In this document: positions 6,001 through 9,000 of the stretch, piece by piece
How positions within the stretch are numbered: the first letter of the stretch is position 1
Layout of the letters: each line of letters begins with the position of its first letter
NCBI RefSeq assembly: GCF_003334815.1
Contig: NZ_QOWO01000061.1
From: Escherichia coli
GTDB lineage: Bacteria; Pseudomonadota; Gammaproteobacteria; Enterobacterales; Enterobacteriaceae
Strand: one strand, 5' to 3'
DNA: 10,623 nucleotides
Position numbers: made by a program

Positions 6001-9000
6001 CGGCAAAATCGCGCCGAAGGATGTCGCTGCCGACTGGGCAATGGAGCGCCTGCCGGCCCAGTATCAGCCCGTCATACTTGAAGCTAGACAGGCTTATCTT
6101 GGACAAGAAGAAGATCGCTTGGCCTCGCGCGCAGATCAGTTGGAAGAATTTGTCCACTACGTGAAAGGCGAGATCACCAAGGTAGTCGGCAAATAATGTC
6201 TAACAATTCGTTCAAGCCGACGCGCTTCGCGGCGCGGCTTAACTCAAGCGTTAGATGCACTAAGCACATAATTGCTCACAGCCAAACTATCAGGTCAAGT
6301 CTGCTTTTATTATTTTTAAGCGTGCATAATAAGCCCTACACAAATTGGGAGATATATCATGAAAGGCTGGCTTTTTCTTGTTATCGCAATAGTTGGCGAA
6401 GTAATCGCAACATCCGCATTAAAATCTAGCGAGGGCTTTACTAAGCTTGCCCCTTCCGCCGTTGTCATAATCGGTTATGGCATCGCATTTTATTTTCTTT
6501 CTCTGGTTCTGAAATCCATCCCTGTCGGTGTTGCTTATGCAGTCTGGTCGGGACTCGGCGTCGTCATAATTACAGCCATTGCCTGGTTGCTTCATGGGCA
6601 AAAGCTTGATGCGTGGGGCTTTGTAGGTATGGGGCTCATAATTGCTGCCTTTTTGCTCGCCCGATCCCCATCGTGGAAGTCGCTGCGGAGGCCGACGCCA
6701 TGGTGACGGTGTTCGGCATTCTGAATCTCACCGAGGACTCCTTCTTCGATGAGAGCCGGCGGCTAGACCCCGCCGGCGCTGTCACCGCGGCGATCGAAAT
6801 GCTGCGAGTCGGATCAGACGTCGTGGATGTCGGACCGGCCGCCAGCCATCCGGACGCGAGGCCTGTATCGCCGGCCGATGAGATCAGACGTATTGCGCCG
6901 CTCTTAGACGCCCTGTCCGATCAGATGCACCGTGTTTCAATCGACAGCTTCCAACCGGAAACCCAGCGCTATGCGCTCAAGCGCGGCGTGGGCTACCTGA
7001 ACGATATCCAAGGATTTCCTGACCCTGCGCTCTATCCCGATATTGCTGAGGCGGACTGCAGGCTGGTGGTTATGCACTCAGCGCAGCGGGATGGCATCGC
7101 CACCCGCACCGGTCACCTTCGACCCGAAGACGCGCTCGACGAGATTGTGCGGTTCTTCGAGGCGCGGGTTTCCGCCTTGCGACGGAGCGGGGTCGCTGCC
7201 GACCGGCTCATCCTCGATCCGGGGATGGGATTTTTCTTGAGCCCCGCACCGGAAACATCGCTGCACGTGCTGTCGAACCTTCAAAAGCTGAAGTCGGCGT
7301 TGGGGCTTCCGCTATTGGTCTCGGTGTCGCGGAAATCCTTCTTGGGCGCCACCGTTGGCCTTCCTGTAAAGGATCTGGGTCCAGCGAGCCTTGCGGCGGA
7401 ACTTCACGCGATCGGCAATGGCGCTGACTACGTCCGCACCCACGCGCCTGGAGATCTGCGAAGCGCAATCACCTTCTCGGAAACCCTCGCGAAATTTCGC
7501 AGTCGCGACGCCAGAGACCGAGGGTTAGATCATGCCTAGCATTCACCTTCCGGCCGCCCGCTAGCGGACCCTGGTCAGGTTCCGCGAAGGTGGGCGCAGA
7601 CATGCTGGGCTCGTCAGGATCAAACTGCACTATGAGGCGGCGGTTCATACCGCGCCAGGGGAGCGAATGGACAGCGAGGAGCCTCCGAACGTTCGGGTCG
7701 CCTGCTCGGGTGATATCGACGAGGTTGTGCGGCTGATGCACGACGCTGCGGCGTGGATGTCCGCCAAGGGAACGCCCGCCTGGGACGTCGCGCGGATCGA
7801 CCGGACATTCGCGGAGACCTTCGTCCTGAGATCCGAGCTCCTAGTCGCGAGTTGCAGCGACGGCATCGTCGGCTGTTGCACCTTGTCGGCCGAGGATCCC
7901 GAGTTCTGGCCCGACGCCCTCAAGGGGGAGGCCGCATATCTGCACAAGCTCGCGGTGCGACGGACACATGCGGGCCGGGGTGTCAGCTCCGCGCTGATCG
8001 AGGCTTGCCGCCATGCCGCGCGAACGCAGGGGTGCGCCAAGCTGCGGCTCGACTGCCACCCGAACCTGCGTGGCCTATACGAGCGGCTCGGATTCACCCA
8101 CGTCGACACTTTCAATCCCGGCTGGGATCCAACCTTCATCGCAGAACGCCTAGAACTCGAAATCTAACGTCCGTTCGGGCATCGAGGTCCATGTCGGGGT
8201 GGGACGGGCCCGTGGCTTCAAGATCACTTGCAGTCCGACCGCGATGTCTTGGTTGCGCGAGAGGTTGTCGATATCTGTTGATTTGCACCCAAATTTGACC
8301 CGGGATTTGCATTGAATTTTGACCCACCCCTTGTTGTCAGAATTATGTCTCGATTTTCAGTTTGCGGGTCTGTTTTTCCTCCTGCTTATTCTGAGTTGAA
8401 CTGTGTTTGAAGCGGTAACTTTCATTGCCGGTTTCCAGGATGTGGCAGTGGTGGGTTAGTCGGTCCAACAACGCTGTTGTCATCTTTTCATCGCCAAACA
8501 CTCGGCTCCATTCCGAGAAGCTCAAGTTGGTGGTCAGTATCACGCTGGTTTTTTCGTACAGCTTTGAGAGCAGGTGAAACAGCAGTGCCCCACCGGTTTG
8601 GCTAAAAGGCAAATATCCCAGCTCATCCAGAATCACCAAATCGGCATACAACAGACGGTTTGCGATTTGTCCCTGACGCCCAGATGATTTCTCTTGCTCC
8701 AGTGCATTGACCAAATCCACGGTGGAGAAGAAACGCACCCGTCGGTTCAAGTGCATCACTGCTTGTGTACCAATGGCTGTGGCCAGGTGAGTCTTGCCTG
8801 TGCCTGGCCCACCAATCAGCACCACGTTCTGGGCTTGTTCCATGAAGTCGCACCGGTGCAATTGTTTGACCGTGGCCTCATTAACCAGGCTTTGACTGAA
8901 GTCAAAGCCCACCAAGTCCCGATACACGGGGAACTTGGCCACCCGCAATTGATAGTTCACCGAACGTACTTCACGCTCTGCCACTTCAGCTTTAATCAAG

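What the first reader, a model, noticed from the sequence alone, without database searches (positions are those of the whole stretch)
8168..8345. 3'-CS cut short soon after orf5 by an IS21-family element with reiterated terminal motifs
Seen in sequence: about 110 bp after the orf5 stop the composition changes and motifs ATTTGCACCC (8281-8290), ATTTGACCC (8293-8301) and TTTTGACCC (8317-8325) appear, then the istB stop at 8343. Such multiple terminal repeats are typical IstA binding sites at IS21-family ends. The exact junction (my estimate is near 8276, TGTTG) cannot be fixed without a reference. The 3'-CS is therefore truncated, with no further 3'-CS sequence after orf5.
Basis: partly seen in the sequence, partly recalled or inferred. 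Interest (0 to 1): 0.45.

Follow-up and report, generated by a model that had tools for sequence, protein, structure and literature searches.

The report
Known Tn21 integron–IS1326 junction

Summary
The window is Tn21 of plasmid R100/NR1: 10,623 of 10,624 aligned positions are identical. The integron 3'-conserved segment (3'-CS) runs to base 8275, 108 bp past the orf5 stop. Seven unrelated flanks of the same IS end in environmental genomes all diverge immediately before TGTTG, which fixes the terminus to the base.

Two inverted copies lie at the other IS1326 end in R100. This is the L1/L2–R1/R2 layout that IstA binds in IS21-family elements. IstA and IstB both pass the curated IS21 NCBIfam cut-offs.

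There is no target duplication. A sister configuration (pSN254 type) carries 359 bp more of the 3'-CS against the same IS end and has an identical flank at the other end. The truncation is therefore best read as an IS1326-adjacent deletion, not a simple insertion. The exact junction occurs in 540 PLSDB plasmids and 136 complete E. coli genomes. Interest is low.

The parts
6251..8275 (+). 3'-conserved segment (3'-CS) of the class 1 integron: qacEdelta1 6359-6706, sul1 6700-7539, orf5 7667-8167. It is 2,025 bp, or 2,026 bp if the G of the GTTAGAT core site at 6250 is counted.
   Evidence: A 2,026-bp block is 100% identical between the pSN254 and R100 loci and ends at the IS1326 junction. The cassette boundary GTTAGAT is at 6250-6256. 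Gene names are from the R100 annotation.
7667..8167 (+). orf5, a GNAT-family N-acetyltransferase of 166 aa
   Evidence: ORF list. Annotated as WP_000376623.1 in R100 and pSN254. Only weak GNAT hits in NCBIfam, all below their cut-offs.
8168..8275 (+). 108-bp tail of the 3'-CS between the orf5 stop and the IS1326 end. It is the last 3'-CS sequence in the window.
   Evidence: Forward identity with the longer 3'-CS of pSN254 runs through 8275 and then diverges.
8276..10623 (-). IS1326 (IS21 family). The window holds 2,348 of its 2,470 bp, in reverse orientation, and ends before the istA start and the left end (IRL).
   Evidence: 100% identity to IS1326 in R100. The uninterrupted element measures 2,470 bp from TGTTG to CAACA in L005, L008, L009 and L011. 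Annotated as IS1326 in many records.
8276..8327 (+). Right terminal inverted repeat (IRR) of IS1326. The outer terminus TGTT is at 8276-8279, repeat R1 at 8280-8301 and repeat R2 at 8304-8325 (extending to 8327 with AC), 24 bp start to start.
   Evidence: Repeat family D4 and inverted pairs I1, I3 and I4. Pattern matches. Four-way alignment with 15 invariant columns. Terminus fixed by seven independent flanks.
8343..9128 (-). istB, the helper AAA+ ATPase of 261 aa
   Evidence: NF038214 IS21_help_AAA scores 283.7 bits against a cut-off of 200. Pfam IstB_IS21 is recorded for the same protein.
9115..10623 (-). istA, the transposase. It overlaps istB by 14 nt. The annotated protein is 507 aa, and its start codon lies 15 nt beyond the window end.
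   Evidence: NF033546 transpos_IS21 scores 326.6 bits against a cut-off of 160. The R100 annotation places it at 10364-11887 of L002, which is window 9115-10638.

Best explanation
Window 8168-8345 is the junction between the 3'-conserved segment of integron In2 in Tn21 and the right end (IRR) of IS1326, an IS21-family insertion sequence lying in reverse orientation. The 3'-CS ends at 8275 and IS1326 begins at 8276 with 5'-TGTTG.

The first ~52 bp of the IS carry two direct 22-nt repeats, R1 and R2. They match two inverted repeats, L1 and L2, at the other end. By analogy with IS5376/IS21, these are the sites where an IstA tetramer binds: the catalytic subunits on R1/L1 and the structural subunits on R2/L2.

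The IS did not arrive here by simple insertion. It has no target duplication. A sister configuration has the same IS end 359 bp further along the 3'-CS and an identical flank (tniB-delta) at the other IS end. The most likely history is therefore one ancestral IS1326 insertion followed by an IS1326-mediated adjacent deletion (intramolecular transposition from the IRR end). That deletion removed 359 bp of 3'-CS and produced the In2 junction, which has since spread clonally with Tn21.

Shown here: the identity, the boundary, the repeat architecture, the lack of a duplication, and the existence and frequency of both junction types. Inferred: IstA binding to R1/R2 and the deletion mechanism.
For: - The window matches R100 Tn21 at 99.99% over 10,624 aligned positions, and the R100 annotation gives the gene order.
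- Identity with the long 3'-CS runs forward through 8275, and identity with IS1326 runs backward to 8275/8276.
- Seven independent flanks (L014-L020) have C, G, G, C, A, A, A before TGTTG, so the terminus is 8276.
- IS1326 is 2,470 bp from TGTTG to CAACA when uninterrupted.
- R1, R2, L1 and L2 align with 15 invariant columns.
- The literature on IS21 ends reports two direct repeats per end, both required for integration, spaced 23 bp, with a terminal CA and a 5-bp duplication (PMC10122671).
- IstA and IstB are above the curated IS21 cut-offs.
- The flanks are GATATC|IS|GGCCAT in the In2 form and CCACGC|IS|GGCCAT in the pSN254 form. Neither has a duplication, and the IRL flank is the same in both.
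- The In2 junction probe is present in 540 plasmids and 136 E. coli genomes, and the long-form junction in 74 plasmids.
- The structure of In2 is stated in PMC6737455, and In0 is described as having orf5/orf6-istB in PMC7556812.
Against: - The deletion mechanism is inferred only from comparing end products; no intermediate was seen and no experiment was done.
- All four combinations of short or long 3'-CS with or without IS1353 exist. The history therefore also involved homologous recombination between integrons, or repeated events, and the order of events cannot be read off.
- IstA binding to the IS1326 repeats has not been tested. It rests on analogy with a distant family member.
- The primary papers that defined IS1326 and In2 (Brown, Stokes and Hall 1996; Liebert, Hall and Summers 1999) could not be read here.
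Confidence: 0.95

Rival explanations
1. Simple insertion: IS1326 transposed directly into the 3'-CS between 8275 and 8276, and the rest of the 3'-CS continues on the other side of the IS.
For: The IS end is intact and precisely terminal at the junction.
Against: There is no target duplication: the flanks are GATATC and GGCCAT. In R100 the sequence beyond the other IS end is tniB-delta and tniA, not 3'-CS. The same IRL flank occurs with a different IRR flank in pSN254.
Confidence: 0.02
2. The repeated motifs are part of the 3'-CS, or arise by chance, and the IS terminus lies elsewhere, closer to the istB stop.
For: The short 9-mer pattern is not significant on its own: 13 of 200 shuffles reach 2 matches.
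Against: The long 3'-CS of pSN254 diverges from the window at 8276 and lacks the motifs there. The motifs accompany the IS into seven unrelated contexts and are mirrored at the other IS end. The 22-nt unit never occurs in shuffles.
Confidence: 0.01
3. The short (In2) and long (pSN254/In0) junctions arose from two independent IS1326 insertions into different integrons, each followed by its own rearrangement, rather than one junction deriving from the other by deletion.
For: Neither junction has a target duplication, so neither can be shown to be the primary insertion. IS1326 is found outside integrons, so it is or was mobile.
Against: The IRL-tniB-delta junction and everything beyond it are 100% identical over 5,349 bp in the two forms, including the IS1353 insertion. 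Two independent events would have to reproduce that junction exactly.
Confidence: 0.03

Closest known systems
In2, the class 1 integron of Tn21 (plasmid R100/NR1, NC_002134.1)
   Same: The gene order is identical: Tn21 IR, tnpA, tnpR, intI1, aadA1, qacEdelta1, sul1, orf5, IS1326. The 3'-CS|IS1326 junction is identical. Identity is 99.99% over the whole window.
   Different: There is one missing C in the aadA1 attC site at about window 6224. The window ends about 97 bp before the point where IS1353 interrupts IS1326 in In2, so that hallmark cannot be seen.
Long-3'-CS integrons with IS1326 (pSN254/IncC type; In0 of pVS1 is described as orf5/orf6-istB in PMC7556812)
   Same: The same IS1326, the same IRR terminus and the same IRL flank. 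The 3'-CS is identical over the first 2,026 bp.
   Different: These retain 359 bp more of the 3'-CS before the IS end: 467 bp after the orf5 stop against 108 bp here. They are rarer, at 74 against 540 plasmids.
IS21 / IS5376, the prototype IS21-family elements (PMC10122671)
   Same: An istA-istB operon; ends with 5'-TG...CA-3'; two direct repeats per end about 23-24 bp apart, each with two conserved blocks separated by a variable A/T-rich stretch.
   Different: The repeat sequence itself is different. IstA binding has not been shown for IS1326. This copy lacks the 5-bp target duplication because of the adjacent deletion.

Membership tests
IS21 family (IS1326) | IstA DDE transposase | tested here: met
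   NF033546 transpos_IS21 scores 326.6 bits against a cut-off of 160.
IS21 family (IS1326) | IstB helper AAA+ ATPase encoded immediately downstream of istA | tested here: met
   NF038214 IS21_help_AAA scores 283.7 bits against a cut-off of 200. istA ends at 9115 and istB starts at 9128 on the - strand, a 14-nt overlap.
IS21 family (IS1326) | Terminal inverted repeats ending 5'-TG...CA-3' and made of two or more direct repeats at each end | tested here: met
   The ends are TGTTG...CAACA. R1 and R2 in the window and L1 and L2 in R100 align with 15 invariant columns. The family feature is taken from PMC10122671.
IS21 family (IS1326) | Near-identity to the element named IS1326 | tested here: met
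   100% identity to the elements annotated as 'IS21-like element IS1326 family' in R100, pSN254 and hundreds of plasmids. The ISfinder reference itself was not available.
Simple (undeleted) IS insertion | Direct target-site duplication of 4-8 bp flanking both ends | tested here: not met
   The flanks are ...GATATC|IS1326|GGCCAT... in R100 and related loci. This fits an adjacent deletion.
In2 of Tn21 | Tn21 backbone with intI1-aadA1-3'-CS ending at this IS1326 junction | tested here: met
   99.99% identity to R100 over 10,624 aligned positions. The 48-bp junction probe is identical in R100.
In2 of Tn21 | IS1353 inserted inside IS1326 | not testable with these tools
   The insertion point (L002 11969, equivalent to window 10720) lies beyond the window end. 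Loci with the same junction exist both with IS1353 (L002, L006, L012) and without it (L005, L008, L009, L011).

The most novel reading that the evidence does not exclude
The In2 breakpoint may not be a single frozen historical event. All four combinations of short or long 3'-CS with or without IS1353 exist. Either integrons still exchange segments by homologous recombination within IS1326 or the 3'-CS, or the IRR end of IS1326 repeatedly deletes to the same GATATC target, which would mean IS1326 is still active in clinical plasmids.
Probability: 0.1. Interest if true: 0.3.

Novelty: already known. Interest (0 to 1): 0.07.

Why it matters
It matters only as annotation. The boundary defines the In2-type 3'-CS and is a useful lineage marker for Tn21-derived resistance regions: 540 plasmids and 136 complete E. 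coli genomes carry it. It shows that the 3'-CS is not one fixed sequence and that insertion sequences trim it by adjacent deletion. No open question is affected.

Tried and rejected
1. The short motif WTTTGMCCC as a statistic is not significant by itself. I replaced it with the 22-nt unit.
2. The Providencia plasmid pPROV073-1 looked like a third 3'-CS/IS1326 junction because of a 214-bp length difference. It has the In2 junction plus a small MITE inserted 10 bp inside the IS end, so it did not help to fix the terminus.
3. The comparison of the window with pSN254 leaves a 1-bp ambiguity, because a C precedes TGTTG in both. The IR symmetry (CTGTTG...CAACAG) does not resolve it either.
4. The look-up of encoding contigs with IstB returned only integron contexts and gave no new flank. 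It did supply uninterrupted IS1326 copies for the 2,470-bp length.
5. The primary papers (Brown et al. 1996; Liebert et al. 1999) are not held. What I say about them is from memory and marked as such.
6. The promoter/terminator scan of 8100-8500 found one weak promoter-like match and no terminator. It was not informative.

Full report
**What is in the sequence.** orf5 (7667-8167, 166 aa) stops with TAA at 8165-8167. ATTTGCACCC, ATTTGACCC and TTTTGACCC lie at 8281-8290, 8293-8301 and 8317-8325. The istB stop codon occupies 8343-8345 on the minus strand. G+C falls from about 0.6-0.7 in the orf5 region to about 0.43-0.45 around 8250-8450.

**What the window is.** The whole window aligns to plasmid R100/NR1 (NC_002134.1) with one 1-bp gap in 10,624 positions. 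The R100 annotation identifies the order as follows:
- Tn21 terminal repeat (window 2-39), tnpA, tnpR
- intI1, aadA1, qacEdelta1, sul1, orf5
- istB and istA of IS1326

This is the published structure of In2 in Tn21: IRi, 5'-CS, aadA1, 3'-CS, IS1326, IS1353, tni module, IRt (PMC6737455). The window ends 15 nt before the istA start codon and about 97 bp before the site where IS1353 interrupts IS1326 in R100.

**Fixing the breakpoint.** Plasmid pSN254 carries the same 3'-CS and the same IS1326, with 359 bp more 3'-CS between them.
- Identity with the pSN254 3'-CS runs forward through window 8275 and then stops.
- Identity with IS1326 runs backward to 8275/8276, and a C precedes TGTTG in both contexts.
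- That left a 1-bp ambiguity, which the symmetry of the ends did not resolve (CTGTTG...CAACAG is also symmetric).
- An exact-match scan of 100,044 species genomes with the first 39 bases of the IS found eight loci.
- Seven are unrelated contexts in Halopseudomonas, Limnobacter and several MAGs. The base before TGTTG in them is C, G, G, C, A, A, A.

Uninterrupted copies measure 2,470 bp from TGTTG to CAACA. From memory, this matches the length ISfinder gives for IS1326.

**The reiterated motifs.** The three short motifs are half-sites of a longer unit.
- A 22-nt direct repeat occurs at 8280-8301 (R1) and 8304-8325 (R2), 24 bp start to start.
- No shuffle of the window yields any match to the unit.
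- The same pattern finds two further copies in R100. Both are inverted and lie at the other end of IS1326: L1 is terminal and L2 is internal, separated in R100 by the IS1353 insertion.
- The four units align with 15 invariant columns (GA-TTGC ... AA--TTGACCC), and the two terminal units share the outer TGTT.
The four half-sites are 12 bp apart.

This is the organisation described for IS21-family ends. Each end has two direct repeats (L1/L2, R1/R2) about 23 bp apart, and each repeat has two conserved blocks separated by a variable A/T-rich stretch. Both repeats are required for integration. The catalytic IstA subunits sit on the terminal repeat, the structural subunits sit on the internal repeat, and the reactive end is a terminal CA (PMC10122671). 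IstA binding to the IS1326 repeats is an inference from that work and was not tested here.

**The proteins.** IstB (8343-9128, minus strand) scores 283.7 bits on NF038214 (cut-off 200). IstA (9115 to the window end) scores 326.6 bits on NF033546 (cut-off 160). The two genes overlap by 14 nt.

**How the junction arose.**
- In R100 and related loci the flanks are ...GATATC|IS1326|GGCCAT..., so there is no target duplication.
- What follows the other end is tniB-delta and tniA, not 3'-CS.
- In pSN254 the flanks are ...CCACGC|IS1326|GGCCAT... The IRL side is 100% identical to R100 over 5,349 bp, while the IRR side retains 359 bp more of the 3'-CS.

One shared IS flank plus two different positions for the other, intact IS end is the signature of an IS-mediated adjacent deletion. 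The In2 3'-CS spans window 6251-8275 and is a strict prefix of the longer one. It is 2,025 bp, or 2,026 bp counting the G of the GTTAGAT core site. From memory, this is how Brown, Stokes and Hall (1996) explained In0, In2 and In5, but I could not read that paper here. A held paper describes In0 as qacEdelta1-sul1-orf5/6-istB (PMC7556812), which fits the long form. The mechanism remains an inference from end products.

**How common it is.** A 48-bp probe centred on the junction is 100% identical in 540 PLSDB plasmids across many genera and in 136 of 5,426 complete E. coli genomes, 46 places being chromosomal. The long-form junction occurs in 74 plasmids.

1. 108 bp of 3'-CS do follow orf5.
2. 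The motifs are two 22-nt repeats.
3. The truncation came about by deletion, not by plain insertion.

The feature is already known and is a standard landmark of Tn21/In2. Interest is low.

Noticed in passing
window 6220-6230 (aadA1 attC site): One C is missing relative to R100 (GCCGACGCGCTTCG against GCCGACGCCGCTTCG). This is the only difference from R100 in the whole window. Of about 2,001 plasmids matching this 56-bp stretch, only one (NZ_LT985321.1, E. coli) has the same deletion. It could be a rare real variant of the attC central region or a sequencing error in the source record.
   Followed up: partly
L003 1686-1899 (Providencia plasmid pPROV073-1, NZ_CP096354.1): A miniature element of about 209 bp, with Tn3-family-like terminal repeats (GGGGTCTGAAGGCCAATAGAACGAAAACGTACG... 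/ ...CGTACGTTTTCGTACGGTTGGACCTCAAACCCC), is inserted 10 bp inside the IS1326 right end. It is flanked by a 5-bp duplication, ATTTG, and splits repeat R1.
   Followed up: partly
L014-L020 (genome-contig hits): IS1326 occurs outside integrons. One copy is 100% identical over the 1,172 bp held, in Halopseudomonas xiamenensis, next to DNA with no plasmid match. Isoforms about 93-99% identical, with the same 39-bp terminus, occur in several places in two Limnobacter genomes and in MAGs. This hints at an environmental reservoir of the IS.
   Followed up: partly
L001, L002, L005-L013: All four combinations exist. Short 3'-CS with IS1353: R100 (L002), L006, L012. Short without IS1353: L005, L008, L009, L011. 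Long with IS1353: pSN254 (L001). Long without IS1353: In0, according to PMC7556812. A single linear series of events cannot produce all four, so recombination between integrons is implied.
   Followed up: partly
window 1-39 and 10623: The window starts 1 bp outside the 38-bp Tn21 terminal inverted repeat (GGGGTCGTCTCAGAAAACGG..., 2-39). It ends 15 nt short of the istA start codon, so istA is not listed as a complete ORF.
   Followed up: yes
window 8319-8346 (+): A weak sigma-70-like match (TTGACC, 16 nt, AATTAT) has its -35 hexamer inside repeat R2 and points into the IS, antisense to istB. Every repeat unit contains TTGACC, so at the left end the same hexamers would face istA. No evidence of function.
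   Followed up: no
window 7753-8298 (+): A 181-aa GTG ORF overlaps orf5 in another frame and runs across the 3'-CS/IS1326 junction. It is almost certainly a chance ORF of the G+C-rich 3'-CS.
   Followed up: no
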